From an uncultured Acidobacteriota bacterium (GTDB taxonomy: Bacteria > Acidobacteriota > UBA6911 > RPQK01): 64,000 bases of DNA. Both the position numbers and the translations under genes were made by a program. Shown one piece after another: positions 2,925 to 20,287 of this stretch (positions are counted from its first letter, which is position 1; each line of letters begins with the position of its first letter). The stretch is from contig CAVUUN010000010.1 of NCBI GenBank assembly GCA_963744645.1, positions 122,150 to 186,149 of the forward strand, written 5' to 3'. Below the pieces are notes generated by a model. The model was given only the letters and a program-made list of their open reading frames with translations. It did no database searches and was not told where the DNA came from.

Positions 2925-3269
2925 GTGTTCTCCTCTCGGTTATCAGGAGGGCCGGCTCGTGCCGGTCCTGCGGCGGCAGAGAGTTCGTCTGACAGCCGCT
3001 TGCGCAGTACAATGTAAGCAAATCTCGGACCGTTCGGAGGGAGAAGGTGTGCTATAGCCGTTAAGGGTTTGTGTAACTGAGAGATAAAGGGCAGGCGGTG
3101 GCCGGTATGCCGCGCCCGCGCTTTTCGGGTGCGTGTAGGGATTACCGGCACGTTTGTCGGATTCTCCTACACGCGTGAGCTTGGGGCGGAGGGCCTTTTT
3201 GTGAGCGCGCAGGGCGACGTGAACGAGCGCGAAGGCGGGCCTTGTTGGAGCGAGAGGTCGGCCTTCTGG

Positions 3270-3476
3270 AGCGCGGACGTCCCGTCCGCACTGGGTTCGC
3301 GGGCATCTTGCCCGCGCGCCGGGCATCCTGCCCGGCGTTGGTTTTGCCCGGGCGGGCTCCTCGCGTCGGACACCGGAGACGGCGGGCAAGATGCCCGCCC
3401 CGCGGACGGGACGTCCGCGAACCCAGTGCGGACGAGATGTCCGCGCTCCCGAAGGCCGATGTCCGCGCTCCCGAAC
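3270..3476. repeat. Nested GC-rich palindrome plus a 2x tandem 20-bp repeat in a divergent intergenic region
   Basis: 3272-3316 (gcgcggacgtcccgtccgcactgggttcgcgggcatcttgcccgc) pairs with 3381-3433 (gcgggcaagatgcccgc cccgcggacgggacgtccgcg aacccagtgcggacg). gcgggcatcttgcccgc and gcgggcaagatgcccgc are exact reverse complements. The unit gatgtccgcgctcccgaa repeats twice at 3434-3476. Confidence 0.7.
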
Positions 3477-3555
3477 CGATCTCGCGCTCCGAAGGCAGGG
3501 TTCGCCTTCGCGGTCGATGTTCCTACGCGTCGGAAATGGGGTAGAATGACTCCTT

Positions 3556-4266
3556 ATGCAAAGCGGCTTGTGGCTTTTGCTTGGGACCGCGGCGAGCATC
3601 GGCTTTCTTCATACTTTGATCGGGGTGGATCATTCTTTGCCGTTCATCGTTATCGGCAAGGCTCAGAACTGGCCGTATCGGAAGCTGCTTCTCATTACCA
3701 GCCTGTGCGGGCTTGGGCACGTGCTGTCCTCCGTGCTGCTCGGGTTCATGGGGATCGGGCTTGGAGTCGCGGTCGAACGATTGCAATGGATCGAGGGCAG
3801 CCGGGGAGAAGTGTCCGCCTGGTTGCTGATCGGATTTGGGCTCGCATACGCCAGCTGGGCGTTCTACCGTTACCTCCGGAATCGTCCCCACCACCATGTC
3901 CATCTGCACGAGGGGAGTGAAGAGCACGCCCATGAGCATGGCCATACCGACGAGCATCTCCATCCGCACAAGCTGAGCCGCCGGAGCCTTACCGTCTGGA
4001 CGCTTTTTGTCGTCTTCGTGTTCGGGCCATGCGAGCCGCTGATCCCTTTGCTGATGGTGCCCGCCCTGCAATACAACTGGGCGGCCGTAACACTCGTCGC
4101 TACGGTTTTCAGTCTGACTACCATACTGACAATGGTGACGGTCGTGACGATCGGATACTTCGGCCTCCGACCGTCCTTCCTGCGACTCTTCGAGCGCCAC
4201 GTGCACATCGTAGCCGGTCTGATGATCGCGGCCAGCGGACTGGCCATCAAACTGCTGGGTATCTAA
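3556..4266 (+). CDS. His-rich-loop metal transporter (NicO/RcnA-like nickel/cobalt efflux family)
   Basis: 236 aa with six predicted TM helices and a central cytoplasmic loop HHHVHLHEGSEEHAHEHGHTDEHLHPH typical of RcnA-type transporters. Confidence 0.55.
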   Translation: MQSGLWLLLGTAASIGFLHTLIGVDHSLPFIVIGKAQNWPYRKLLLITSLCGLGHVLSSVLLGFMGIGLGVAVERLQWIEGSRGEVSAWLLIGFGLAYASWAFYRYLRNRPHHHVHLHEGSEEHAHEHGHTDEHLHPHKLSRRSLTVWTLFVVFVFGPCEPLIPLLMVPALQYNWAAVTLVATVFSLTTILTMVTVVTIGYFGLRPSFLRLFERHVHIVAGLMIAASGLAIKLLGI

Positions 4267-4276
4267 CCTGAGAAAC

Positions 4277-5747
4277 ATGAGCACCAAGCCTGCCGATCCT
4301 GGGCCTCCACTTGGTGACCTCGATCCTGAGACGTTTCGGGAATGGGGCCACCATATCGTCGACTGGATTGCCGAATATCTGGCCAATCCGGAAAAGTATC
4401 CCGTCCTCTCCAAAGTCGAGCCCGGTTCAATCCGAGGGCAGCTTCCAGCGTCTCCTCCCCGTGCAGCCGGAAGATCTTCGGAACGTTTGGCGCGACATCG
4501 AGAACATGATCGTGCCCGGACTGACTCACTGGAATCACCCGGGATTCATGGCCTATTTCGGGATCAGCGGGTCGGCCCCCGGTATTCTTGGCGAGCTCCT
4601 CTCCGCGGCCTTCAACGTCAACGCGATGCTTTGGAAGACCTCACCGGCCGCGACCGAGCTCGAGGAGGTAACGCTCGACTGGCTTCGCCAGATGCTGGGT
4701 CTGCCGGAGCGGTTTTCAGGGAATCATCTACGACACCGCTTCAACCTCGACTCTTCACGCCATCGTCGCCGCACGCGAGGCAATTCCCGGCCTCGGCGCG
4801 CGTGAGGAAGGTCTCTCGGGTAGGCCAGGGAGCGAGATCCTCCGGCTCTACACATCCGAGCAGGCACATTCGTCGGTGGAAAAAGGGGCCATCACGGCCG
4901 GAATCGGCCACAAGAACGTCCGAAAGATCGCGGTGGACGCCGAATTCCGGATGAATTCGGCCGCGCTGGAAAAGGCAATCGTGGAAGACCTCGCCGCCGG
5001 GCTGCGGCCCTTCTGCGTTGTGGCTACTGTCGGAACGACATCGACGACCAGTATCGACCCGGTTCCCGCCGTCGCTCGCATCTGCGAGCGCTACGGCGCC
5101 TGGCTGCATGTGGATGCCTCCTACGGAGGCGCGGCGGCTTTGCTTCCCGAGATGCGATGGGTACTCGAAGGCTGCGCAAGGCGGACTCCATCGTCGTCAA
5201 TCCCCACAAATGGCTCTTCACGCCGGTTGATTTAAGTGCCTTCTACTGCCGCCGGCCGGCCATCCTGAAGCAGGCCTTCAGCCTGGTGCCGGAGTACCTG
5301 AAGACCGGGCAGGACGACGTCGTCAGAAACTACATGGATTACGGCTTCCAGCTGGGCCGGCGTTTTCGCGCTCTCAAGCTGTGGCTCGTTATCCGGACTT
5401 TTGGCAGCGACGGCATGGCGGCCAGGATTCGGGAACATATCAGGCTCGCCCGCCTCGTTGCCGATTGCATCGACCAGGACCAGGACTTCGAACGGATGGC
5501 GCCCACTCCCTTCAGCACCATCTGTTTTCGGGCGGTTCGGCCCGGCTCTCACTCACAGGATCTCGATGCGCTCAACCAGCGACTGCTCGACGAAGTGAAC
5601 AGAAGCGGTGAAGTCTTCCTTTCCCACACCCGTCTCCACGGCCGGCTCGCGCTCAGGATGGCGATCGGGAACATTCGGACCGACGAGGCGTGGGTGCGAC
5701 GGGCTTGGCAACTGGTCAGGAAATCCCTGGACGCTGTCTCCGGTTAA
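4277..5747 (+). CDS. Group II PLP-dependent decarboxylase (aromatic-L-amino-acid / tyrosine decarboxylase family), interrupted by three 1-bp frame breaks
   Basis: The N-terminus MSTKPADPGPPLGDLDPETFREWGHHIVDWIAEYL, the segment NMIVPGLTHWNHPGFMAYF, and SIVVNPHKWLFTPVDLSAFY (PLP-Lys motif) all match the family, but lie in three different frames. Breaks are at about 4445 (C4 run), about 4715 and about 5165. Removing or adding one base at each site gives a continuous canonical sequence. Confidence 0.8.
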
Positions 5748-8338: not shown

Positions 8339-11149
8339 ATGGACCAAAGAAGAGCGCCAGAGGTGAACTGGACCGTCCGGTATCGCTTCGCCCTGCTCCT
8401 GCTGCTTGCCGCCGCCACGGTGGTGTACAGGGGTCAGGATCTCGAGCGTGTTTTCCTGAGCAAATCGGGACCCCGGGCACCCGGTTTCGGGTCGGTCATT
8501 CAGAACGGCGCAATGACCGTTACGTTCGTTGCCAGCCAAGAGATCTCCGGGGAACCGAGCCCGGTCTTCAAGGCAGGTCTGCAGGTCGGAGACCGTCTGA
8601 TCGCCATCCGCAATGCCAGGGGCGAAGGCCGCACGATCAGGGGGATGTTCGATTTCGGAGCGGCGATCCGGGACCTCGGCCCCAGGGAACCATGGCAGAT
8701 GCTCGTTTTTCGCCCCTTACCCGCGGGAGGCGGCCGTTTCGTCAATCTGCAGGTTCCGGGGCGCGAGGGGGATCTCGACCGCGACCTGCGATTCCGGGTT
8801 CTGGTCCTGATGTTCTCCGTCCTGCTTCCCTTGGCCGCGATCCTCACCTCGTTTTTCATCGGCTTCATGCGATTGGACAATGCCAACGCATTTGTAGCCA
8901 GCCTCCTCTTTCTCGGTTTTTCGACCATATTCCAGACCAATATGTTTGGTTTTCGGCCTGGTCTACGCGAGTTTTCGCTCCTCTATCACACGACTTTGAA
9001 TGTCTTTCTCACTTACCTTTTCTTCCGGTTCTTCCTCTACTTCCCCTCGCCATCCTGGATTGCCCGGAAGCTCCCCTGGCTAAACAACGCGGCGCTTGTC
9101 GCGACGATTCTCTTGTGGGCGACGGCTATTACCACCAGTTTTGCGGGGGCCTACGACTTCGTGTATTTCGAAAGGGTCAGCCGCCTGATCCCGGGTGTGG
9201 ACATCATTTCCAGCCTGCTTCTGATCTCGATGTTTGTGCTCGGTCTGGCCTCCCTGGTCCTGAATACTGCAGGCGCCGAGAGCAAAGATGAACGACGCAG
9301 GATGACCCTGCTTCTGATCGGGACACTGGCGGGGCTGCTTCCGCTCGCCTTTTTCATCGCCTACCTGTCGATTGCCTCGCCGTCGATTCCGCCGTGGTGG
9401 CTCTTTGGGCTGGTCGGCGCCACGCTCGGGCTTTTCCCGATTTCCTTCTTTTACGTCGTGGTCCGTCACCGCGTCCTCGGCATACGACTCATCGTCCGTC
9501 GGGGTCTTCAGTACGCGCTGGTTTCACGGGCAGTCCTGGCCGTCGAGGGAGTGCTCATCTTTGCCCTCTTCTATTACGGCGCCGGTCCGATCCTTGTTCG
9601 GCTGCTCCCCCGCGCCGGGCCGATGACGGTAGCGCTCATCGATGCGGTGACGACGGTTGTCGCCTTGCTCTTGATGCGTGGGCTCAACCGCCGCGTGATG
9701 CCGATTGTCGACCGTCGCTTTTTCCGGGATCCGTATGATGCTCAGAGCATTCTCGCTGAGCTCACACGCACAATCCGTCGCCTCGTCACGCACCCCGAGA
9801 AGCTGTTGGATACTGTCTCCCAGACCACGATGGCGGCTCTTCATCCGCGGAGCACGGCCATCTTCCTTCGCGGAGGAGACGTGCTGGCCGCTCTGCCCAA
9901 GAGTCACTACCCTTCCTCGGTTCACGGCCTGGCCCGTTTCAATCCGCGTGAAAGTCGCAGTTTTCAGCTCTATCAGAGCAGCTCCCAAGGCGAACCGGCC
10001 GGAACCGACCGTGTTGCGGTCATTCCGGCTCCGCAGGACTGCACGCTTCCTGCCGAATCGTTTATCGGTCGGGAACTACGAAAATCGGTCGGGCAGGAGC
10101 CCGAGACCCTGGATGTCTACCTGGACGATCTTAAGGCATGGAGCGCCCCGCTATCCCTGGTCTCACCGAGGGAGGCCGCTCTTTACCAGGAAAGGCAGTT
10201 GCTCGATCACCTGGGGACCCGGCTGCTCGTGCCCATTGCGACTCACGATCAGCTGCTTGGGTTTATCAGTCTCGGGGAAAAACTATCCGAGGAGCCCTAC
10301 TCACGTGAGGACAAGGGGCTGCTCCTGGCGATTGCCGAACAAACTGCGATTGCGCTCGACTATTCACACCTGGTCGGGCAGGTGGCCGAGCAGGAGATTC
10401 TCAGGCGTGACATCGAGATCGCAAAGCAGGTGCAGGCGCAGTTGTTCCCGCAGGCCCGGCCGATTTTCTCGACCCTCGATTACAGTGCCATCTGCAAGCC
10501 CGCGCGTGAAGTCGGCGGGGACTACTATGATTTCCTCCAGCTTTCCGACTCCCAGCTCTGCCTGGCGGTCGGGGATATATCCGGAAAGGGACTGTCGGCA
10601 TCGCTTTTAATGGCAAGTCTGCAGGCGCTGATGCGCAGTCAGGCTCCCCTGCGAGGCCAGAGTCCGGCACTACTTCTGTCCGACATCAACCGGCTTATGT
10701 GCTCCTCGACCGACGGCAGCAAGTACGCCACGTTTTTTTGCGGGATGTACGAGGAACGGACTCACCGGTTTACGTATGTGAACGCCGGGCACAACCTTCC
10801 GATCCTTCTGAGGGACACCGGCGGGGGCAATGGCGCGCAGCGCAAGATCAACAGGCTCTTTACCGGCGGTACCGTCGTTGGGCTCTTCCCGGACGCTTTT
10901 TATGAGCAGGAGACCATCGAGCTTCAAGCTGGCGACGTCCTGGTGATCTACACCGACGGCGCCACCGAAGCGTTCAACATCGAGATGGAGGAGTTCGGGG
11001 AAGAGCGCCTGATCGACGCGGTCAAGAGTGCCGTCTGTCTTTCCTCCGAAGCAATCTGCGGGGCGGTCCTCGACGAGGTGGAAAAATTCGTCGCTCCGGC
11101 GCCCCGTCATGACGATCTCACCCTGCTGGTGGTCAAGGTCGTGGCGTAA
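8339..11149 (+). CDS. Multidomain membrane PP2C-family (SpoIIE/RsbU-like) serine phosphatase: PDZ-like domain, polytopic membrane domain, GAF-like domain and PP2C domain
   Basis: 936 aa. GLQVGDRLIAI is PDZ-like. There are about 8 TM helices between 8800 and 9700. The C-terminus carries VGGDYYDF, VGDISGKGLSASLLM and YTDGATEA PP2C metal-binding motifs. Confidence 0.85.
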   Translation: MDQRRAPEVNWTVRYRFALLLLLAAATVVYRGQDLERVFLSKSGPRAPGFGSVIQNGAMTVTFVASQEISGEPSPVFKAGLQVGDRLIAIRNARGEGRTIRGMFDFGAAIRDLGPREPWQMLVFRPLPAGGGRFVNLQVPGREGDLDRDLRFRVLVLMFSVLLPLAAILTSFFIGFMRLDNANAFVASLLFLGFSTIFQTNMFGFRPGLREFSLLYHTTLNVFLTYLFFRFFLYFPSPSWIARKLPWLNNAALVATILLWATAITTSFAGAYDFVYFERVSRLIPGVDIISSLLLISMFVLGLASLVLNTAGAESKDERRRMTLLLIGTLAGLLPLAFFIAYLSIASPSIPPWWLFGLVGATLGLFPISFFYVVVRHRVLGIRLIVRRGLQYALVSRAVLAVEGVLIFALFYYGAGPILVRLLPRAGPMTVALIDAVTTVVALLLMRGLNRRVMPIVDRRFFRDPYDAQSILAELTRTIRRLVTHPEKLLDTVSQTTMAALHPRSTAIFLRGGDVLAALPKSHYPSSVHGLARFNPRESRSFQLYQSSSQGEPAGTDRVAVIPAPQDCTLPAESFIGRELRKSVGQEPETLDVYLDDLKAWSAPLSLVSPREAALYQERQLLDHLGTRLLVPIATHDQLLGFISLGEKLSEEPYSREDKGLLLAIAEQTAIALDYSHLVGQVAEQEILRRDIEIAKQVQAQLFPQARPIFSTLDYSAICKPAREVGGDYYDFLQLSDSQLCLAVGDISGKGLSASLLMASLQALMRSQAPLRGQSPALLLSDINRLMCSSTDGSKYATFFCGMYEERTHRFTYVNAGHNLPILLRDTGGGNGAQRKINRLFTGGTVVGLFPDAFYEQETIELQAGDVLVIYTDGATEAFNIEMEEFGEERLIDAVKSAVCLSSEAICGAVLDEVEKFVAPAPRHDDLTLLVVKVVA

Positions 11150-11215
11150 CAGGCATTCGGTTCGCCCTGGTCCGCCCCAATTGCCAACGACCCAATTGCC
11201 CCCCGGCGCGTGCGT

Positions 11216-12133
11216 CTATCTGCCGGTCAATACCGGCCCCGCCAGCACACGGAGCTTATAGCGAGAGGTCTGGAGCAGGTTGCCGTCTGCATCGATACAG
11301 CTGACTGCCTCTATTCCAGCCGGGAGAGCGAACGACCGCTTTTCCCCGGTTCGAGTGACGACATGCAGACGGGGCCGGCTAAGCTGCCGAATGTGCACGC
11401 CGGGATTTGCTGAAGGATGAAGAACAGCTTCAGCAGTGGCGATCAGTAGTTCGCCCTTCGAGAATCCGAGTGCGGTTACTGTTTCGTCAAACGACATTGT
11501 CTGCAGCAACTCGCCTTTCGCCCCAAACCAATGGACCTTGTTTTCATCGGGCCGCAACACCGCGGTCTCATTCAGTTGCCCGCCTGCAATTAGCGCCCCT
11601 TGTGATCTGTCGCCCATGACAGCGACCATCGTTTGGAAGACCAGGTTGCCTTGCACGTCATATTTCCTGACATAGGGGAACGGTTGCTGAGGCTTTCTTT
11701 CAGGAACGCTGAAAAACAGCAGGTTCCCTTCATGGTCTACGGTAAACGCCTCCGGGAAACAGTCCCGGCTTTCCGGTTGGGGAACGATCTTTCGTACCAA
11801 CTGGCCGGTTGAACCGTAAACGGCCACCACGGGCCCTTTCGCGCCGGCGTACAAGACGTACCGGGTGTCATCGGGGCCGAAGGCGACCGCAGAAGCGCGC
11901 GATTCTGGTGTTGAATATTGGCTGAAAGCAAAACCCTTCCGGATCTCAACTGCTTCTCCGGTTCCGTGGTCAACGAGCATCGCTGTGCCATCGGCCCTTC
12001 CCACTACCTGAAACATCGGACCGTCAAAAGACATTACAGAGAAATCCTCGATCCTTTCCAACTGGAGGAGAGGCAACTCCGCCTGGGCGGAGGCCGAGAC
12101 GAGACAAGACACGATGATGATGATTTTCAGCAT
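11216..12133 (-). CDS. Secreted hypothetical protein, probable beta-propeller
   Basis: The preferred start is the MLKIIIIVSCLVSASAQA signal peptide, preceded by a GAGGAGG Shine-Dalgarno. The ORF track gives an alternative start at 12175. The protein has repeated hydrophobic/Gly/Asp beta-strand-like blocks. It overlaps the upstream small Cys-rich gene by about 11 nt, which suggests operon coupling. Confidence 0.55.
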   Translation of the reverse strand: MLKIIIIVSCLVSASAQAELPLLQLERIEDFSVMSFDGPMFQVVGRADGTAMLVDHGTGEAVEIRKGFAFSQYSTPESRASAVAFGPDDTRYVLYAGAKGPVVAVYGSTGQLVRKIVPQPESRDCFPEAFTVDHEGNLLFFSVPERKPQQPFPYVRKYDVQGNLVFQTMVAVMGDRSQGALIAGGQLNETAVLRPDENKVHWFGAKGELLQTMSFDETVTALGFSKGELLIATAEAVLHPSANPGVHIRQLSRPRLHVVTRTGEKRSFALPAGIEAVSCIDADGNLLQTSRYKLRVLAGPVLTGR

Positions 12134-12143
12134 AGAGCCTCCT

Positions 12144-12419
12144 CTATAGGCAGCAAACACACTCCCGGTTTTCAAAAATCATATAGTGCATAAACCCGCC
12201 ACAGTGGCAAGGCTCTATGTGGGGGTTACCCGTACAGTACAGGCAACAACTACCCGATGAACATCTTCCCCGCTCTACCCATATGGTGTAGTAGCAACCC
12301 CCGCACTGCCCGGAATAGCTGGCACCGGATGCGCCTGCCCCGCATACCGGTTGGGCCTGTATTGTGGAAGTGAGAAGCAACAGACAGAAAATCAATACGA
12401 AGGCGTGAAGTAATCTCAT
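12144..12419 (-). CDS. Small secreted cysteine-rich peptide (91 aa, 14 Cys in the ~68-aa mature region)
   Basis: Signal peptide MRLLHAFVLIFCLLLLTSTIQA. The mature part is QPVCGAGASGASYSGQCGGCYY...CCLYCTGNPHIEPCHCGG...ECVCCL. A strong SD sits upstream (atgaggaggaccggtcATG on the coding strand), and the upstream 270 bp has lower GC. Confidence 0.55.
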   Translation of the reverse strand: MRLLHAFVLIFCLLLLTSTIQAQPVCGAGASGASYSGQCGGCYYTIWVERGRCSSGSCCLYCTGNPHIEPCHCGGFMHYMIFENRECVCCL

Positions 12420-12692
12420 GACCGGTCCTCCTCATAGCGAAATATATGCTTGAGTGTACGCCCCCCCCCGCGAGAAAGCAACAACAAGACCCGGCTGAGT
12501 CTTTCCTTGGTCGATGCTTGTAAAGCCTGTCTGGTGCCCTATTTCCGACATCGCCCCTAAGCAGTATTATCCTATCTTTTGGTTCAGCATATCCGCTCAC
12601 AGTTATATACGTTGGATTTACTTAACAGATCTAACTGCATCGGAACGGCATTAAGGTCCGACCCAATGCGGTTAAGTTACAAGTACGCTGCG

Positions 12693-13100
12693 GTGCGGGA
12701 TGTACGAGGAACGGACTCACCGGTTTACGTATGTGAACGCCGGGCACAACCTTCCGATCCTTCTGAGGGACACCGGCGGGGGCAATGGCGCGCAGCGCAA
12801 GGTCAACAGACTGTTTACCGGCGGTACCGTCGTTGGACTCTTCCCGGACGCTTTTTATGAGCAGGAGACCATCGAGCTTCAGGCTGGCGACGTCCTGGTG
12901 ATCTACACCGACGGCGCCACCGAAGCGACATTGAGATGGAGGAGTTCGGGGAAGAGCGCCTGATCGACGCGGTCAAGAGTGCCGTCTGTCTTTCCTCCGA
13001 AGCAATCTGCGGGGCGGTCCTCGACGAGGTGGAAAAATTCGTCGGTCCGGCGCCCCGTCATGACGATCTCACCCTGCTGGTGGTCAAGGTCGTGGCGTAA
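12693..13100 (+). pseudogene. Duplicated 3' fragment of the PP2C phosphatase gene (copy of 10742-11151), with an internal small deletion and frameshift
   Basis: The DNA is near-identical to the last ~410 bp of the 8339..11149 gene (MYEERTHRFTYVNAGHNLPILLRDTGGGNGAQRK...). ttcaacatcgagatggag is changed to acattgagatggag. There are a few substitutions, and the terminal ...LTLLVVKVVA-stop is conserved. Confidence 0.8.
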
Positions 13101-13239
13101 CACGTACCCCGGGCTCCCTCGTCCCTTGGCCTTTCAGGCCTTAATACTGAGATTTTCTGATCTTTGCAATTGGCTCTAGACTTAAGCATTTTCGCTGCAA
13201 CAATAATCTCGGTCCGACCAGGTCCGACCCAATTGCCAA

Positions 13240-13460
13240 CGGGCGTTGGGCCTTTTACCCCGAAGGGGTTGCGTAACAAAGCCCAGGGTTGCCCGCGTTT
13301 TGGCGGGCTACCCTGGGTCGGCAAGCCGTAAGTTGTCTACCCTGAAAGGGTTACGTATCACGCTTGGTCCGCAACCCTTTCAGGGTTGGGGCTGCGAACC
13401 TCGGGAACCCACCCCCGCACAAAACGCGGGCAACCCTGGTCTTTGTTACGAGACCCCGTT
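13240..13460. repeat. MITE-like nested inverted repeat (~45-bp terminal arms enclosing an inner hairpin)
   Basis: ccgaaggggttgcgtaacaaagcccagggttgcccgcgttttg (13240-) pairs with caaaacgcgggcaaccctggtctttgttacgagaccccgttggggtc (-13460). An inner palindrome is accctgaaagggtt...aaccctttcagggtt. Confidence 0.6.
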
Positions 13461-13486
13461 GGGGTCTGAAACGCTTTTTCGACACC

Positions 13487-13600
13487 CTCGACAGCGAGCG
13501 CCAGCGAGCGAGTGAGCGGACCAACCAACATGCCCTTTAGGCTGGCTCTTGCTACTCGCGACTGCCCCCTGGGGCTGGGTGGCTGGTCCGCTTACTCGCT
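13487..13600. repeat. Long imperfect hairpin (~31-bp arms)
   Basis: cagcgagcgccagcgagcgagtgagcggacc pairs with ggtccgcttactcgctcgcttgcgctcgctg, with a ~55-nt loop. Confidence 0.55.
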
Positions 13601-13879
13601 CGCTTGCGCTCGCTGCCATGCGCGGCTCCTTACGGTGATTGCTCGCCGCTCGTTCTCGCTGAAACCCATGCGGCTGTGCAAATGCTCCTCCCCGGCACAC
13701 GGTGCTGCCCGGAAGGGGGCAAAAGAATGAAGGCGGCCGTTTTCCGCGAGGTTCTCGTCTGCCCGCTGTTACGCCAAACTCCTCAAAACGTAATAACAAC
13801 CGTGTAGTAGAATGATCGCTCATTTGAGACAGGTGTTTTCTCGTCTCGAATACGGCGAGGTTCATTCAGAGGAGCAATC

Positions 13880-15157
13880 ATGGAAGCATTTCTTGGGCTG
13901 ACCGTGACTCAGCGCGTGGCGCTTTGTCTCACGGCCATTTTGTCGCTTGCTTTTGTCGCGTCCTGCTCGAAGGAGGAGCCAGCCGGCGCCCGCAGACCGG
14001 GAGCCCGCGGAGGCGCGGTCATGGTTCAGATCGCAACTCCCACGCGAGTGCCATTCGAGCGTGAGGTCGATCTGGCGGGAACCCTAGTCTCGATCGACCA
14101 GGCGCGGGTGAGCAGCGAGGTGGCCGGCATGGTCCGTGAAGTGCTCGTCAACCTGGGGCAGGAAGTTACGGCCGGGCAGGTTCTTGTGAGACTCGATCCC
14201 AGGGAGTTGGAAATCGCCGTGGCGCGCGCCGAGAGCCAGTTGCGCCAGACCGAGGCGCAACTCGGTATTGACGGGGTGAAGATCACCCAACCACCCGCCG
14301 ATGAAGAGATCGCAGCTGTCCGAACGGCTGCCGCCAACCGCGATGACGCCCGGGCCCAGCTTTCGCGCGCCAGCCGGCTGCGCGGACGCAACCTGCTGTC
14401 GCAGGCCGATCTGGACACCGCAGAGACGCGGGTCAAGGTGACTGAGGCGGGTTACCAGGCAGCGCTGGAAAATGTCCATTCGATCAAGGCCAGCCTTCAG
14501 GACAGACGGGCCGCCTATGAGCTCGCACAGAAGAAGCTCAGCGACGCCGTGATCCGAGCGCCGGTGTCCGGTTCGGTCAGCGAACGGCTGATCCAGCCGG
14601 GTGAGTTTATCCGTGAGAATACCCCGGTCGTAGGCCTCGTCCAGTTGAACCCTTTGAAAGTGATGACCGGAATCCAGGAGCGGCACGCGGGTTTGATCCG
14701 GCCGGGACTCGCCGTGGAGTTTCAGGTCGAATCCTTCCCGACCGAGACCTTCCTTGGGAAAGTGGCGCACGTCAGTCCTTCCGTGGATCAGGGGACGCGA
14801 ACCTTTGTGGTCGAGATCCTCGTCGACAATCGCGATCGCCGGCTCAAGCCCGGTTTCTTCGCGAAGGGGATAATCTCGGTCGGCCGGGACGACGTGCTCG
14901 CAATCCCCGATCAGGCCGTCTCCGTCCTCGCCGGTGTATCGGCGGTTTTTGTTATTGAAGGGAACAAGGTGCGACAGCAAGTGGTGAGTCTGGGCGCCCG
15001 CCAGGGGAAATTCATGGAAGTCCTGAACGGCTTGAAGGGGGACGAGAAACTCGCGATCACCAATCTGAGCCAGCTGGCCACCGGAGTGGAGGTCAAAGTT
15101 TCGTCTGGTGACAATCAGGCCCGGGCCAGGGGCGGGGCGGGGGAAGGTGGTCGATGA
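13880..15157 (+). CDS. RND efflux periplasmic adaptor (membrane fusion protein, HlyD/AcrA family), lipoprotein
   Basis: 425 aa. Lipobox LAFVASC. Coiled-coil and beta-barrel MFP architecture. The stop overlaps the start of the RND pump (ATGA). Confidence 0.85.
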   Translation: MEAFLGLTVTQRVALCLTAILSLAFVASCSKEEPAGARRPGARGGAVMVQIATPTRVPFEREVDLAGTLVSIDQARVSSEVAGMVREVLVNLGQEVTAGQVLVRLDPRELEIAVARAESQLRQTEAQLGIDGVKITQPPADEEIAAVRTAAANRDDARAQLSRASRLRGRNLLSQADLDTAETRVKVTEAGYQAALENVHSIKASLQDRRAAYELAQKKLSDAVIRAPVSGSVSERLIQPGEFIRENTPVVGLVQLNPLKVMTGIQERHAGLIRPGLAVEFQVESFPTETFLGKVAHVSPSVDQGTRTFVVEILVDNRDRRLKPGFFAKGIISVGRDDVLAIPDQAVSVLAGVSAVFVIEGNKVRQQVVSLGARQGKFMEVLNGLKGDEKLAITNLSQLATGVEVKVSSGDNQARARGGAGEGGR

Positions 15158-18100
15158 AACTAGCGGATGTCAGCATTAACAGACCGGTATTCGCCTTCAT
15201 GATGTCCATCGGGCTCGTGGTCCTCGGCCTCTTTTCCTACCGGGATCTTGGGCTGGACCTCATGCCCAAAACCGATTACCCGGTCGTTTTCGTCAGCACG
15301 ATTCTGCCAGGCGCCAGTGCCGAGGAAATTGAAACCCAGATCAGTAAGCCCATCGAAGAAGTGGTCAATACGATCAGCGGGATCGATGAACTCCGCTCGA
15401 TGTCCGACCAGGGGGCATCACGCGTCATCATTTCCTTCACGCTCGAGAAGGACATTAACGTCGCGGTCCAGGAGATCCGCGACAAGGTCGCCACGATCGT
15501 TGCACGGTTTCCGCGCGACACCCTCCCCTCCACGATCCAGAAAATCGATCCCGACGCGGCCCCGGTCCTCACTGTCGCCGTCTCCGGTGACCGGTCTCCC
15601 AAGGAAATCACGGAGATCGTGGACAAGCAGATCAAGCAATCGCTTGAGACGGTCAAGGACGTTGGAGATGTCAGTTTTATCGGCGATCGGCGCCGGGAGA
15701 TCCAGCTTCTGTTGAACGCGGATCGAATGAACGCCTACGGCCTCACCGTCGACCAGATACGTGCCGCAGTTCAGAAGCAGAACGTCGAGATCCCGGGTGG
15801 GACCTTTGTCGCCGGCCCTTCGGAAATCGCACTTCGAACCATGGGGCGGATTCAGAACGTCGACGACTTCAACCGGATCATCCTCGCCTATCGCTCGGGA
15901 TCGACGGTCACTTTCGGTGACGTCGGCCGCGTGCTCGACACCGTTGAAGAACCGAAAAGCCTTGCCCGGTTGGATGGCCGGTCGGCCGTCTCGCTGCTGA
16001 TCCGCAAACAGTCCGGAACGAACACTGTCAGCGTCGTGGACGCGATTCTCGCCAGGCTTGACAGGATCAAGCGGACCCTGCCTCCTGACATCCGCATTCA
16101 GACCATTCGCGATCAGTCCCGGTTTATTCGGAAGTCGTTCGAGGACATTCAGCATCACTTGATCCTCGGTGGGTTGCTGGCCAGCCTCGTCGTCTTCTTC
16201 TTCATCCGGAACATTCGCAGCACGATTATTGCCGCTGTCGCTATTCCAACGTCGATCATCGGAACCTTCACGATCATGAAAGCGTTCGGGTTCACCCTGA
16301 ACAACATGACGATGCTCGCGCTCTCACTCGCCACAGGCATCGTTATCGACGATGCCATCGTGGTTCTCGAGAACATCTTTCGGTATGTGGAGGAAAAGGG
16401 AGTCGCGCCGAAGAAGGCCGCCGCTCTCGCGACCAACGAAATCGGCCTGGCGGTCATGGCCACCACACTCTCGCTGGTCGTCATCTTCCTTCCCGTCGCC
16501 TTCATGACGGGGCAAGTGGGGCGGTACTTCTACAGTTTCGGAATCGCGTCTGCGGCCGCCATCATGCTTTCGATGTTCGTCTCCTTCACGCTGACGCCCG
16601 CACTCTGCGCCACGTGGTTGAGACCGACAGATGCAGGCGGCGGTCACACCCAGTCGAAATCCAGGGGATTCTACGCCAAGATGGACACGGCTTATGGGCA
16701 CATGCTCCAGTGGAGCCTGCACCATCGCGCCATCATGCTGCTCGTTGCCGGCATCGTCACCCTCTCGGCTGTTCTCCTGTTCCCCAGGATCGGCAAGGAA
16801 CTGGTTCCGGATGACGATCAGAGCGAGTTCAACGTGGGCGCGCGAATGCCCAAGGGGACGAGTTTCGCGCGTACCGACGAGTTCATTCGGGAAATCGAGG
16901 CAGCCATCCGGAACTCCCGGAGGTGCAGACGGTTTTCACGAACATCAACGGCAACCGCGGGGACATCTATGTCGGCCTTACCTCGCACGAGGATCGCTCC
17001 ATCAGCCAACAGGAGATCATGCGCCGCGCCCGCCGGTTACTCAACCGTTACTCGGCTCACGCCCGCATCAGCGTCTCGGGAGGTACCGAGCTGTCCGGCG
17101 CATCGAGCTCCGGAGGCCGGGGTGGAGGCGGATCGACCAACCGACTCTACCTGTTGATCCAGGGACGCGAGATATCCCAGCTGCAGGTGTACATCACGCA
17201 GTTGATGGATAAGATGAAGACGGTCCCTGGGCTGGTTGACGTCGACACGAACTTCGAGGCCACTCAGCCCGAGCTGCGAGTCAATGTCGACCGCGCACGG
17301 GCGGTGGATCTCGGTGTAACCATCGATTCTCTAGCTTCCAGCCTCAGGTTGCTGGTCGGTGGCGAGGAGGTATCGAAGTACAAGGAAGGCGACGATCAGT
17401 ACGTGGTCCGGCTGCGCCTTGACGAGCCTTTCAGGAATAAGGCCGACGGGATGGGTCAGCTCCTGATCCCCTCGTCGACCCAGGGAACGGTCAGGGTCTG
17501 CGATATCGCCCGTCTGCGACTGGAGCCCGGGCCTGCCTCGATCGACCGATATAACCGCCAGCGTCAGGTTTCCCTGTTCGCCAACCTCGATAACCTGCCC
17601 CTCGGAGAGGCGATCAACAAAGCGGGTGCGAAGGTTGCGGAGCTCGACATGAAGCCGGGCTACCAGGCGGTGTTCGGCGCCGGTGCGAGGACCTTCAGCG
17701 AAGCCTCCAATGATTTCATGATCGCGATTATCCTGGCGATCGCCTTTATCTACATGGTGCTTGCTTCGCAGTTCAACAGCTTCATTCACCCGTTGAGCAT
17801 CATGACGGCGTTGCCGCTTAGTCTCCCGGCGGGCCTGTTGACCCTGCTGGTCTTCGATCGGACTCTCAACGTTTACAGCGCCATCGGTCTGATGATGCTT
17901 TTTGGTGTCGTCAAGAAGAACTCGATTCTCCAGGTGGACTACACGAATACGCTGCGCGCCCAGGGGATGGAACGGCACGAAGCCCTTATCCAGGCGAACC
18001 ACGTCCGGCTCAGGCCGATCCTGATGACGACAGTTGCGATCGTGGCGGGTATGGTCCCGATCGCGTTCGGTCGAGGCGCCGGGGCGGGGTCGCGCTCCTC

Positions 18101-18272
18101 GATGGCCTTGACGATTATCGGAGGTCAGATCCTCTGTCTGCTCTTGACCCTGCTGATCACTCCCGTCGTCTACAGCTACTTCGACGACCTCCGGGAATTC
18201 AAGTTCGCTCGGCTCTTCGGGCGGTTCCGTCGACCGCGGCTCACCGAAGGAAACGCCTCAGCCTCCGGTTGA
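15154..18272 (+). CDS. RND efflux permease (AcrB/HAE1 family), one 1-bp frame break near 16915
   Basis: Two ORFs, 15154..17157 and 16923..18272, are the N- and C-halves of a ~1,040-aa RND pump (12 TM helices, large periplasmic loops). The join ...EIEAAIRN(L)PEVQTVFTNINGNRGD is restored by one missing C at aacctcccg. Confidence 0.9.
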
Positions 18273-18418: not shown

Positions 18419-20287
18419 TTACTTCTCGCCGGTGCGGCCGGTTGCGCGGTCGAGGTTCACACGTGCTTTCGCGTAGTTTGTCCGCGCCCTGACCTCCTCG
18501 AATCGGGCCGCCATCAGATCCCGTTGCCGTCGGATCAGGTCGTAGGGTGTCGAAAGGCCGGCGAGCAGCTTCTCCTCCTCCTCCTGAAAGCTTCTTTCCC
18601 TCAGCTCGACAGCTTTCCTGGCGGAGTCCACCTGCGCCGATGACTGCGTGAGCGCAATCATGGCGTTACGAACCTCCAGGCGGATCCGATTTCGGAGTTG
18701 CTGCAGCGAAGTTTCCGCTTGCTGCTTTTCGATCTTCGCTCGTGCGTGGTCCGCCTGCGCGCTTCGGTTGAGCATGGGGAACTGCAGCGAGAAACCAAAG
18801 GCGTACTCGGGGTGATCAAACCGGCCAAGCTGACCCAGGGCGCTTCCCAGGCCACCGTTCACGAGGATCGGGCCGGCCGGTGAATCGACCAGCCGGTTTC
18901 CATAGAGGCCCGCACTGTTCAACCATTCCGAAAAGCACCAGGCTCGGCTTGAGGAGGTCGGCGGTGTATCGGATCGCCACGTCCTGGTTGAGAAGGTTGG
19001 CTGCCCCCTGACGGAGCTCCGGCCGGTTCTCGAGTGCGAGGGCCAGCATGTCCTGAAGCCGCGGGCACAGATTCCGCGTGCGGGTCGGGCAGCGGGTCCG
19101 TCGGTTCCACGCGGACGGAGGCGACCACCTTGGCGACATCCCGGGTAAGGGTGTTTTTCAGCTCAGTTTCGCGCAAGTCGTAGACCGTGCGGGCGGCAAT
19201 CAGGTCGCGACGACGGGCGGAGACCTCAGAGGCGGCGGTGAACACCTCGATCTTGGACAATGCCCCCGCTTCTTCCCGTTCCCGGTTGTCCTCGTAGAGC
19301 TGTTGGGCGACCTGCAGGGACTTCTCTGCGACGAGCACGTTGTCGCGGGCGGAAACAAGATCCCAGTAGAGTGTTTCCGCCTGAGAAAGGGTAGTCATGA
19401 CCTGTTGCCGCACGGCTTCAGTCGTGATTTTCCTCCCACTCTCGGCGACAGTCAGGAACCGTCGATTCACATCGAAACCCGCCCCGTTCAGAAGCTGCTG
19501 GGTGATAGTCAGGGAGAACGAAGACACAAACGCCGGGTTAAAGCGCAGGAACTGCTGGCTGGATCTCTGCTTCTGATTATTGAAGCTGACGCTGACTGAG
19601 GTTCCGCTGGTAAAAGCCTGGGCGAAGCGGGCCTGAAGTGCCGTCGTGGAGGTTAAAACAGTCGGCACACCGGCGACGACCAGGGTATTGAGCGGCGTCT
19701 GCGTCCGGTCGTAACTGAAATTGAGTGCGATGCTCGGGTCGTAAGGTTCCCCGAGGGCGGGCGACAACCTGCCGGGCATTCCCCGTAATGCCTCCGGCTC
19801 CGCTGGTGCCCCCGGCACCGGCCGCATCCCCGACGCCGGCACCGATAGCTCCTGCAAACAGCCCGCTCGGAACTCGGACTCCGGGCGCGCCTCGGGGAGC
19901 TCCGCCGCCGCGTGCGCGCAAAACATCCGTCTCGGCCATGGCCTTGTTTTGAGCCGTGGAGGCGATGTCCAGGTTGTTGTGAATCACGAAAGAGCGAAGT
20001 TGTTCGAGAGAAAGCTGCAGCTTCCCATCCACGACCAGAGGCTTCAGGTCGACAGGATCGGTCAGCGGGATCGGGGGTAACGATTGCGCCCGGTAGGGCT
20101 TGAAGACATTGGGGAACCAAGCCGGTCCGTCACTGTAGTCAGTGGTGGAAGCGGGTGTCTGTGCGACCGCAGGGATCGGGAGCACAAGGCCAATCACGAT
20201 TCCGAGGGCAGCCCTCCGGCAAACGGAGGCCTGCCGTCGGTGAGTCGAGATCCGGGACGGAGTAAGTCCATTCATCGTGCGCTTCAT
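18419..20287 (-). CDS. Outer membrane efflux protein (TolC/OMF family), copy 1, with at least two frame breaks (about 18920 and about 19760)
   Basis: Three ORFs (19577..20287, 18919..19926, 18419..18922) align in order to the N-terminal, middle and C-terminal parts of the intact paralog at 20292..22205. Examples are PAWFPNVFKPY, PLNTLVVAGVPTV and ANYAKARVNLDRATG. Confidence 0.75.

What the first reader, a model, noticed from the sequence alone, without database searches (positions are those of the whole stretch)
10742..13241. A ~410-bp duplicate of the PP2C gene 3' end brackets a lower-GC 1.5-kb cassette; GGTCCGMCCCAAT motif at all three junctions
Segment 12693-13100 is a near-identical copy of 10742-11151, the last 136 codons plus stop of the phosphatase gene, but with a small internal deletion that breaks the frame. 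Between the two copies lie two secreted-protein genes and an AT-richer promoter region.

The motif ggtccgCcccaattgccaacg occurs about 20 bp after copy 1 (11169-11200). aggtccgAcccaatgcgg occurs about 20 bp before copy 2 (12654-12673). ggtccgaccaggtccgAcccaattgccaacg occurs about 110 bp after copy 2 (13211-13241).

This looks like the scar of a site-specific or homology-mediated insertion that regenerated the gene's 3' end, as genomic islands that target gene 3' ends do. No integrase is present. Alternatively, a cassette was captured between direct repeats.
Basis: seen in the sequence. Interest (0 to 1): 0.6.

Follow-up and report, generated by a model that had tools for sequence, protein, structure and literature searches.

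The report
Gene-end duplication flanking an inserted two-gene cassette
In an uncultured Acidobacterium, a 1.5-kb pair of secreted-protein genes was inserted just after a phosphatase gene, leaving a decaying duplicate of that gene's last 430 bases; the scar is real but ordinary, with no sign of a dedicated mobile-element machinery.

Summary
The last ~430 bp of a 936-aa membrane/GAF/SpoIIE (PP2C-type) phosphatase gene occur twice, ~98.5% alike. The second copy is 5'-truncated and carries a 4-bp deletion. GGTCCGMCCCAAT occurs three times (0.29 expected).

It is not an assembly artefact. An independent assembly from another sample (L162) has both copies on one contig, with the same derived changes in copy 2.

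An empty site exists. In a sister species (L082, 84% aa identity) the phosphatase stop codon lies 13 nt from the efflux-operon leader, so window 11150-13762 is lineage-specific.

The cassette holds a secreted NHL-like beta-propeller gene, a 12-Cys secreted peptide gene and an AT-rich leader. It has a second copy in the same species, next to a MacB-type permease gene, without the motif and without any flanking duplication. The two copies exchange sequence by gene conversion.

No integrase or transposase was found. The motif belongs to a short local repeat (R), and a fourth copy occurs in L162.

The best reading is a one-off, homology-assisted (Campbell-type or illegitimate) insertion-duplication. 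The exact mechanism is unresolved. The island-like, site-specific model is not supported. This is ordinary structural evolution, of modest interest.

The parts
8339..11149 (+). Intact phosphatase gene, 936 aa: N-terminal membrane region, GAF domain, C-terminal SpoIIE/PP2C domain
   Evidence: ORF. Pfam SpoIIE at residues 737-934 (E=1.8e-48) plus GAF. Orthologues of 78-84% identity have the same length.
10721..11156 (+). Copy 1 (A1): last 142 codons, the stop and 7 nt downstream (CAGGCAT). This is the functional end of the gene.
   Evidence: It keeps the outgroup (L082/L001) state at most sites where the two copies differ.
11157..11202 (+). M1: partial copy of repeat R (core plus right half): TCGGTTCGCCCTGGTCCGCCCCAATTGCCAACGACCCAATTGCC...
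   Evidence: (families D3, D5). About 85-88% identical to R copies M3 and M4.
11203..12620 (-). Cassette C, the unit shared with the second (MacB) locus. It holds the 305-aa gene (11216-12133), the 91-aa gene (12144-12419) and an AT-rich upstream region (12420-12620).
   Evidence: Homology with L163 spans window 12617-11216 (93% / 85.6%) and with L167 spans 12431-11232 (93.1%). The 305-aa protein models as a six-bladed NHL-like beta-propeller: pLDDT 84, Foldseek E=3e-11 to Brat NHL. dN/dS is about 0.12 for the 305-aa gene and 0.07 for the 91-aa gene.
12621..12667 (+). M2: diverged partial copy of R (left half plus core): ACTTAA..CTGCA..AGGTCCGACCCAAT
   Evidence: The core matches M3 at 14 of 14 positions; similarity of the left half is weak.
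12668..12679 (+). 12-nt filler of unknown origin (GCGGTTAAGTTA) between M2 and copy 2
   Evidence: Identical in L162.
12680..13106 (+). Copy 2 (A2): orphaned, 5'-truncated 3' end of the phosphatase gene. It is a pseudogene with a scrambled left edge and a 4-bp deletion.
   Evidence: L162's copy 2 shares the derived changes and has decayed further: 15 substitutions between the two strains' copy 2, against 5 between their copy 1.
13107..13241 (+). Spacer plus full R copy (M3, about 13176-13241): CTAGACTTAAGCATTTTCGCTGCAACAATAATCTCGGTCCGACCAGGTCCGACCCAATTGCCAACG
   Evidence: L162 carries an extra 546 bp with a fourth R copy (M4) between copy 2 and this segment.
13257..13615 (.). Two long palindromic hairpin elements (13257-13465 and 13492-13615). 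They are part of the lineage-specific intergenic material but not of the duplication itself.
   Evidence: Inverted repeats I1, I2, I4. RNA fold -261.6 kcal/mol, z = -13. Absent from L082.
13763..15157 (+). Point where homology with the empty-site relative resumes: the leader, then the membrane-fusion-protein gene (13880-15157) of an RND efflux operon
   Evidence: In L082 the phosphatase stop is followed after 13 nt by sequence aligning to window 13763 onward. Pfam HlyD_D23.

Best explanation
What is shown:
- In the ancestor of this Acidobacteriota species, a ~1.5-kb segment was placed 7 nt after the stop codon of the SpoIIE phosphatase gene.
- The segment consists of an R fragment, a two-gene secreted-protein cassette with its own AT-rich leader, a second R fragment and 12 nt of filler.
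- The same event duplicated the last 436 bp of the gene region.
- The left copy keeps the gene intact. The right copy lost its 5' part and is decaying as a pseudogene.
- The cassette is one of two paralogous copies in the species. The other sits downstream of a MacB-type permease gene. The two copies still exchange sequence by gene conversion.

What is inferred:
- The duplication arose by homology-assisted recombination, not by a dedicated recombinase.
- The simplest route is RecA-type single-crossover (Campbell-type) integration of a ~1.96-kb circularised DNA. That DNA carried the gene's 3' end plus the cassette.
- The scrambled left edge of copy 2 would be the illegitimate joint that closed the circle.
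- Such DNA could have come from a diverged conspecific lineage, which would explain why the differences between the copies are mostly synonymous.
- The GGTCCGMCCCAAT motif is the core of a short local repeat (R) native to this intergenic region. It is not a demonstrated recombination site.
For: - The duplication is real and fixed. Both copies lie on one contig in an independent assembly, with shared derived changes.
- There is an empty site. L082 (84% aa identity) has the phosphatase stop 13 nt from the efflux-operon leader, so window 11150-13762 is extra.
- Copy 2 is a pseudogene. It is truncated and frameshifted, and it accumulates changes about 3 times faster than copy 1 between strains.
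- No recombinase was found. There are no Pfam or NCBIfam hits in the cassette ORFs, and neighbouring genes are a racemase, PhoH/PIN, HlyD, AcrB, OEP and malectin proteins. Inverted repeats are absent from the cassette ends.
- The second cassette locus in the same species (L163, L167) has the same cassette limits but no motif and no flanking duplication. That the loci belong to one species is inferred from cluster metadata: 305-aa protein P0001 and MacB protein P0092 each list a longest contig of 1,465,891 bp. That contig's DNA was not read.
- A 436-bp repeat fits homologous recombination better than att cores or transposase target duplications.
- Differences between the copies are synonymous-biased, 7 synonymous to 2 nonsynonymous against a neutral expectation of 1:3. 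This suggests one copy diverged as part of a working allele.
- Recombination at the locus is ongoing. The cassette differs 6.1% between the window and L162 (dS 0.20) while the flanks differ 0.8-1.2%. L162's cassette is 99.45% identical to the MacB-locus copy. The divergent tract coincides with the cassette.
Against: - No circular or donor form was seen.
- No strain was found with the cassette but without copy 2, and no conspecific strain with an empty site. The only empty site is in a sister species.
- A simple single crossover between diverged alleles predicts differences across the whole repeat. Instead, 6 of 7 lie in a 138-nt patch (clustering P about 0.08), so later gene conversion between the copies must be invoked.
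- The R fragments flanking the cassette, in permuted order (core+right ... left+core), are not explained by plain homologous integration. They hint at some R-based step.
- The synonymous-bias statistic rests on 9 sites.
Confidence: 0.5

Rival explanations
1. Replication-based origin. A broken or stalled fork near the 3' end of the phosphatase gene was repaired by serial template switching (MMBIR/FoSTeS-like), or a tandem duplication acquired an insertion at its joint. The repair copied short R pieces, then the cassette from its other locus, then re-entered the gene upstream. This produced the 436-bp duplication with patchwork junctions.
For: The junctions are patchworks of short segments: a 46-nt R piece, a 47-nt R piece, a 12-nt filler and a locally templated TGCGG duplication at the left edge of copy 2. 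A cassette template exists elsewhere in the same species. No recombinase is present.
Against: M1 and M2 are only about 85% like the nearby R copies, and the window's cassette allele differs 6-7% from the MacB-locus copies, whereas the two gene-end copies are 98.5% alike. They were therefore not all copied from resident templates at one time, unless later gene conversion homogenised the gene-end copies. The synonymous bias between the copies is unexpected for an in-situ duplication.
Confidence: 0.25
2. Remnant of a site-specific integrative element (CIME-like), or a small element mobilised in trans. The element targets the 3' end of the phosphatase gene, or the R core, and carries a replacement gene end, as islands in tRNA or protein-gene 3' ends do. 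Its integrase was lost or is encoded elsewhere.
For: Direct repeats flank the insert, and one of them restores the target gene. This is the hallmark described for IMEs and CIMEs (PMC5704250). The R core lies about 12 nt inside each end of the inserted segment, all in one orientation. Three hits against 0.29 expected.
Against: No integrase, excisionase or transposase is encoded in the cassette or the surrounding genes. The repeats are 436 bp rather than tens of bp. The cassette's second locus has no R motif and no repeats. The 546-bp difference between the window and L162 is not bounded by R cores. R copies also occur away from any cassette junction (M3, M4), and the doubled GGTCCGACC 9-mer alone recurs at L163:16327. 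No match to plasmids or phages.
Confidence: 0.12
3. A larger tandem duplication (phosphatase gene plus cassette) followed by deletions. The deletions removed the 5' part of the second gene copy and the second cassette.
For: Tandem duplications are common. Copy 2 lies downstream of the cassette's AT-rich region, as a divergently transcribed full gene would.
Against: It needs at least three further precise deletions. It does not explain the R fragments or the 12-nt filler, and no intermediate was seen in three strains.
Confidence: 0.08
4. Assembly artefact: two strain haplotypes chained together, or a collapsed or expanded repeat.
For: The window shows split genes elsewhere (RND pump, OEP) that suggest long-read indel errors. 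Related contigs tend to end at cassette edges: L081 at window 12423, L167 at 11232.
Against: L162, from a different sample and 2.5% diverged, reproduces copy 1, the cassette and copy 2 on one contig, with the same copy-2-specific changes plus further private decay.
Confidence: 0.02

Closest known systems
Integrative elements inserted in the 3' end of genes (IMEs, ICEs, genomic islands) and their integrase-less remnants, CIMEs
   Same: The insert lies next to the 3' end of a housekeeping-type gene. It is flanked by direct repeats, one of which contains the gene end, so the gene stays intact (description in PMC5704250). Like a CIME, the insert carries no integration genes.
   Different: The repeats are 436 bp rather than short att cores. 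No recombinase is encoded nearby. The cargo is only 1.4 kb. The same cargo at another locus lacks any att-like repeat. Nothing shows it can excise.
Campbell-type (single-crossover) insertion-duplication, as produced by integration of a circular DNA carrying an internal or 3' gene fragment (own knowledge: the principle of insertion-duplication mutagenesis and plasmid or prophage Campbell integration)
   Same: Heterologous DNA is bracketed by a direct duplication of several hundred bp of chromosomal sequence. One copy is contiguous with the gene and the other is 5'-truncated. The repeats stay prone to gene conversion and loop-out.
   Different: The circular donor is hypothetical, and no vector or replicon backbone is present. 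The distribution of differences between the copies needs later conversion to fit.
Homology-facilitated illegitimate recombination and microhomology-mediated template switching (own knowledge: de Vries and Wackernagel 2002 for HFIR; MMBIR/FoSTeS models)
   Same: One side is anchored by homology. The other junction is illegitimate, with a short scrambled or templated patch. Foreign or ectopic DNA is acquired without a dedicated recombinase.
   Different: HFIR usually replaces or deletes recipient DNA rather than duplicating 436 bp. The template-switch models were established mainly in eukaryotes and E. coli amplifications and are untested in Acidobacteriota.

Membership tests
Integrase-bearing genomic island / IME in a gene 3' end | Element encodes a tyrosine or serine site-specific recombinase | tested here: not met
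   The cassette ORFs have no Pfam or NCBIfam hit. Neighbouring ORFs across about 5.7-26.7 kb of the window are a racemase, PhoH/PIN, HlyD, AcrB, OEP and malectin proteins. The L081 and L162 gene tables show none either.
Integrase-bearing genomic island / IME / CIME in a gene 3' end | [quoted passage not shown] | tested here: met
   10721-11156 and 12680-13106 are about 98.5% identical, and the left copy completes the SpoIIE domain.
CIME / site-specific element | The same att core is used wherever the element is found, and repeats are short cores | tested here: not met
   The second cassette locus (L163, L167) has no R motif and no flanking repeat. The repeat here is 436 bp long.
CIME / site-specific element | Excision to a circular form, mobilised in cis or trans by a cognate integrase | not testable with these tools
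   No read data are available and there is no complete genome to search for a recombinase.
Campbell-type insertion-duplication | Heterologous DNA bracketed by a direct duplication of a chromosomal segment long enough for homologous recombination; one copy continuous with the gene, the other 5'-truncated | tested here: met
Campbell-type insertion-duplication | Relatives with an uninterrupted (empty) site | tested here: met
   L082: the phosphatase stop is followed after 13 nt by the efflux-operon leader. It is a sister species (84% aa identity), not a conspecific strain.
Campbell-type insertion-duplication | A circular donor carrying the homologous fragment | not testable with these tools
   No such molecule was found. 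No match in plasmid or phage collections.
IS / transposon / MITE insertion | Transposase and/or terminal inverted repeats with a short (2-14 bp) target duplication | tested here: not met
   No inverted repeat pairs the cassette ends. No transposase domains. The duplication is 436 bp.
Integron gene cassette | An attC palindromic site at the cassette end and an IntI integrase with attI nearby | tested here: not met
   R is made of direct repeats, not an attC-like imperfect palindrome. No integrase was found in the ORFs scanned. Only part of the 64-kb window was scanned for proteins.

The most novel reading that the evidence does not exclude
The R core, two GGTCCGACC repeats followed by CAATTG, is the recombination site of an unrecognised cassette-shuttling system in these Acidobacteriota. 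The system would carry no integrase in the cassette. A circle consisting of the cassette plus one R would open in the core and insert, which would explain why the insert begins with core+right half and ends with left half+core. An enzyme encoded elsewhere would mobilise the secreted propeller / Cys-rich peptide gene pair between loci.
Probability: 0.06. Interest if true: 0.6.

Novelty: new member of a known kind. Interest (0 to 1): 0.3.

Why it matters
The locus is a clean natural example of how a small accessory gene pair can be added next to a conserved regulator gene without breaking it. It also shows that no mobile-element enzyme need be encoded in or near the insert. The example comes from a phylum with almost no genetics.

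Several practical points follow:
- Long gene-end duplications should not automatically be read as att sites of islands.
- The duplicated gene end and the second cassette copy keep recombining, which is a source of strain-level variation and of breaks in metagenome assemblies.
- The work flags an uncharacterised, purifying-selected pair: a secreted NHL-like propeller and a 12-Cys peptide.

It does not reveal a new kind of system.

Tried and rejected
- Rfam scan of the whole window at gathering threshold: no hits. tRNA/tmRNA scan: none. So there is no RNA-gene integration target.
- Rfam E-value scan of 11100-13900: only sub-threshold hits on the hairpins. These were plant miRNA models matching generic long hairpins, and Acido-Lenti-1 at 23 bits against a gathering score of 37. 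I treat them as leads only.
- Sigma-70 promoter scan of 11000-14000: 0 sites. The AT-rich stretch remains a presumed promoter or leader.
- Exact-protein look-ups of the window's phosphatase, of P0004 and of the copy-2 ORF: not on record. The window's own source contig could not be fetched.
- Look-up of the membrane-fusion protein: only short Logan contigs without DNA, beginning about 236 bp upstream of the gene.
- The 78% relatives (L001, L083, L166) all end in palindromic repeats within 170-310 bp of the gene, so they say nothing about an empty site.
- Motif scan of viral contigs: two exact 17-mer hits with no extended similarity, judged to be chance.
- Cassette DNA against plasmid and phage collections: no match.
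- The idea that the cassette was unusually conserved between the window and L081 (0 differences in 1274 nt) was dropped. Local background divergence there is only about 0.26%.
- My first dN/dS run on a gapped alignment was out of frame (305-aa lines). It was redone on ungapped sequences.
- A distant homologue of the 305-aa protein (P0066, locus L169) is not preceded by a Cys-rich peptide gene. The gene pairing is therefore not conserved at that distance.
- dif/Xer-type and integron attC-type sites were considered. R is built of direct repeats, not of the required palindromic arms. A single GTTRRRY match in the 12-nt filler is within chance.

Full report
**1. The observation**

The window carries a 936-aa ORF at 8339-11149 with a long hydrophobic N-terminal part, a GAF domain and a C-terminal SpoIIE (PP2C-type) phosphatase domain at residues 737-934 (E=1.8e-48).

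Its last ~430 bp recur 1.95 kb downstream. The matches are 10739-10972 = 12694-12927 (98%) and 10977-11173 = 12928-13124 (94%). The pairwise alignment shows a 4-bp deletion (TTCA) and 6-7 substitutions in the second copy.

- On the left, homology starts at CAAGTACGC (10721 / 12680). In copy 2 a scrambled patch follows, in which CACGTTTTTT is replaced by a duplicated TGCGG.
- On the right, it ends 7 nt after the stop (TAACAGGCAT). This is seen in copy 1 and in the copy 2 of a second strain.

GGTCCGMCCCAAT occurs at 11169, 12655 and 13221, all on the + strand. That is 3 hits against 0.29 expected, and none of 100 shuffles reached 3.

Between the copies lie two minus-strand ORFs and a GC-poor stretch (GC 0.48 against about 0.60).

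**2. The structure is real and lineage-specific**

The organism is an uncultured Acidobacteriota lineage. The closest species representative in GTDB is only 78% identical in the phosphatase.

Exact-protein look-ups recovered conspecific contigs from other Nanopore-style assemblies:
- L081 (ERZ25039545, 98.7% identical) has the phosphatase gene followed by the cassette. The contig ends at window 12423.
- L162 (ERZ25039596, 97.5% identical) carries copy 1, the cassette and copy 2 on one contig.

L162's copy 2 shares every copy-2-specific change: the scrambled edge, four substitutions, and an indel at the TTCA site. It also has private decay, with 15 substitutions between the two strains' copy 2 against 5 between their copy 1. 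The duplication therefore predates the strain split, copy 2 is an unconstrained pseudogene, and an assembly artefact is excluded.

A JGI contig from a sister species (L082, 84% aa identity) supplies an empty site. There the stop codon is followed after 13 nt by sequence aligning to window 13763 onward. That sequence is the leader and start of the HlyD-type membrane-fusion gene at 13880.

So window 11150-13762 (2.6 kb) is specific to this lineage. It comprises the cassette, copy 2, the R repeats and two long hairpins.

**3. The cassette**

The 305-aa ORF (11216-12133, minus strand) starts with a signal-like MLKIIIIVSCLVSASAQA. It has no Pfam or NCBIfam hit.
- In the 5.8-billion-protein index it has only one cluster.
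- An exhaustive HMMER search found 27 relatives, including about nine full-length proteins of ~30% identity.
- An AlphaFold model built on that alignment (pLDDT 84, pTM 0.83) is all-beta. It matches six-bladed NHL propellers such as Brat NHL (E=3e-11, TM about 0.6).

The 91-aa ORF (12144-12419) is a signal peptide followed by a 69-residue region with 12 cysteines.

Both genes are under purifying selection between alleles. The 305-aa gene shows 40 synonymous and 16 nonsynonymous changes (dS 0.20, dN 0.024). The 91-aa gene shows dS 0.13 and dN 0.009.

The cassette contains no recombinase or transposase. None was found among neighbouring genes either, which encode a racemase, PhoH/PIN, HlyD, AcrB, OEP and malectin proteins. 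No inverted repeats pair its ends. Its DNA matches nothing in the plasmid or phage collections.

**4. A second copy of the cassette in the same species**

A 90%-cluster member of the 305-aa protein lies on L163 (661-kb contig). The cassette there, corresponding to window 12617-11216, sits between a MacB-type permease gene and a PNPOx gene. Identity is 93%, falling to 85.6% in the AT-rich part.

L167 is another strain at that locus. It has the two genes starting 32 nt after the MacB stop and lacks the AT-rich part.

Both loci appear to belong to one species, on indirect evidence. The MacB protein P0092 and the phosphatase-linked 305-aa protein P0001 each list a longest contig of 1,465,891 bp. 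That contig's DNA was not read.

The sister species lacks the cassette at both loci (L082, L168).

At the MacB locus there is no R motif at either edge and no flanking duplication. This is the main evidence against the motif, or the gene end, being the cassette's attachment site.

**5. Ongoing recombination**

Between the window and L162 the flanks differ by 0.8-1.2%, but the 305-aa gene differs by 6.1%. The divergent tract begins at 11231 and fades around 12400, which is the part of the cassette shared with the L167-type MacB locus.

L162's phosphatase-locus copy is 99.45% identical to L163's MacB-locus copy. The paralogues therefore undergo interlocus gene conversion.

Contigs of this species also tend to break at cassette edges (L081 at 12423, L167 at 11232). 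That is expected for a two-copy repeat.

**6. The motif**

The 13-mer is the core of a repeat of about 60 nt, which I call R: CTAGACTTA..CGCTGCAACAATA..TCGGTCCGACC(A)GGTCCGACCCAATTGCC...

| Copy | Location | Content |
|---|---|---|
| M3 | window 13176-13241 | full R |
| M4 | L162, inside a 546-bp segment that the window lacks between copy 2 and 13107 | full R |
| M1 | window 11157-11202 | core plus right half |
| M2 | window 12621-12667 | weakly similar left half plus an exact core |

These copies are documented.

Further points on R:
- The doubled GGTCCGACC also occurs in an unrelated intergenic region of the same species, at L163:16327.
- GTCCGAC-armed palindromes follow the phosphatase gene in the 78% relative.
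- The 546-bp difference between the strains is not bounded by R cores.
- M1 and M2 are only about 85% like M3 and M4, whereas the gene-end copies are 98.5% alike.

R is thus a native, somewhat dispersed intergenic repeat. Two of its copies lie at the cassette edges in a permuted order, which I cannot fully explain.

**7. Mechanism**

The following is shown: a single inserted block (11157-12679, 1,523 nt) is bracketed by a 436-bp direct duplication. The left copy is functional and the right copy is orphaned.

My inference is homology-assisted recombination. The simplest version is a single crossover between the chromosomal gene end and a ~1.96-kb circularised DNA carrying gene end, M1, cassette, M2 and filler. 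The scrambled edge of copy 2 would be the joint that closed the circle.

Four observations support this:
- the length of the repeat;
- the absence of any recombinase;
- the absence of comparable features at the other cassette locus;
- the excess of synonymous differences between the copies (7 to 2 against a neutral 1:3, P about 0.001-0.01). This suggests one copy diverged inside a working allele of a related lineage. The size of that divergence is comparable to dS between the cassette alleles.

Three observations count against it:
- the differences cluster in 10844-10981 (P about 0.08), so later conversion must be invoked;
- no donor or circle was seen;
- the R fragments remain unexplained.

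A replicative template-switch origin is the main rival, since the junctions are patchworks. A decayed or trans-mobilised site-specific element (CIME-like; PMC5704250) is less likely for the reasons in sections 4 and 6. A large tandem duplication trimmed by deletions needs too many steps.

**8. Comparison and verdict**

The locus works like a Campbell-type insertion-duplication. It superficially resembles islands or CIMEs in gene 3' ends. It fails the tests that define site-specific elements: a recombinase, short reusable att cores, and the same att at other insertions. It also fails the tests for IS/MITE and integron cassettes.

It is a new example of a known kind of rearrangement, in a poorly studied phylum. 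Interest is modest at 0.3. The most novel reading not excluded is that R cores act as sites of an unrecognised cassette-shuttling system. I put its probability at about 0.06.

Noticed in passing
window 11231-12402, compared with L162:1400-2604, L163:9202-10238 and L167:8578-9774: Interlocus gene conversion of the cassette. The window/L081 allele differs 6.1% (dS 0.20) from L162's allele at the same locus while the flanks differ about 1%. L162's allele is 99.45% identical to the copy at the MacB locus.
   Followed up: yes
L162:172-717 (minus strand), between window 13102 and 13106: A conspecific strain has an extra 546 bp directly after copy 2. It contains a fourth R copy and GGAGCCCCGGAGGGGCGAAAG-type palindromes. 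The window has either lost this segment or L162 gained it, and the breakpoints are not in R cores.
   Followed up: partly
window 13257-13465 and 13492-13615: Two very stable long palindromic hairpins (RNA fold z = -13) lie in the lineage-specific intergenic DNA. There is a weak sub-threshold Rfam hit to Acido-Lenti-1 at 13256-13317 on the minus strand (23 bits against a gathering score of 37). Short-read contigs of this region start just after them. Their nature (MITE/REP-like element or RNA) is unknown.
   Followed up: partly
window 12423-12431; L163:9201/9202; L167:8578: Three independent discontinuities fall within 9 nt at the ribosome-binding site of the 91-aa gene. L081's contig ends at 12423, a deletion in L163 has its edge at 12427/12428, and L167's homology with the window stops at 12431. 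L163 keeps the AT-rich leader but lacks the first 57 codons of the 91-aa gene. L167 has the intact gene fused 32 nt behind MacB without the leader.
   Followed up: partly
window 15154-18272 and 18419-19926: The AcrB-type RND pump gene is split into two overlapping ORFs (667 and 449 aa, Pfam ACR_tran positions 2-605 and 609-1020). An outer-membrane efflux protein gene is split into 335-aa and 167-aa ORFs. These are frameshifts, from long-read indel errors or real pseudogenes.
   Followed up: no
L163:16327-16345: An exact doubled 9-mer, GGTCCGACCCGGTCCGACC, lies in an unrelated intergenic region of the same species, without the CAATTGCC tail. It could be a protein-binding direct repeat or part of the dispersed R family.
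   Followed up: partly
L162:2780-2790 (equivalent to window ~11034): In L162 a 1-nt insertion in copy 1 truncates the phosphatase gene call to 903 aa. This is either a sequencing error or a real loss of the last 33 residues in that strain.
   Followed up: no
window 12144-12419 (minus strand): The 91-aa secreted peptide has 12 cysteines in its 69-residue mature part. It is strongly conserved between alleles (dN 0.009, dS 0.13) and matches no known family. It is always adjacent to the NHL-like propeller gene in this species but not next to a distant homologue of that gene (L169).
   Followed up: partly
window 3000-4500, compared with L081: Differences between the window and L081 are concentrated here, with 85 of 148 differences in 1.5 kb. 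This suggests a recombined tract or a fast-evolving gene upstream of the locus.
   Followed up: no
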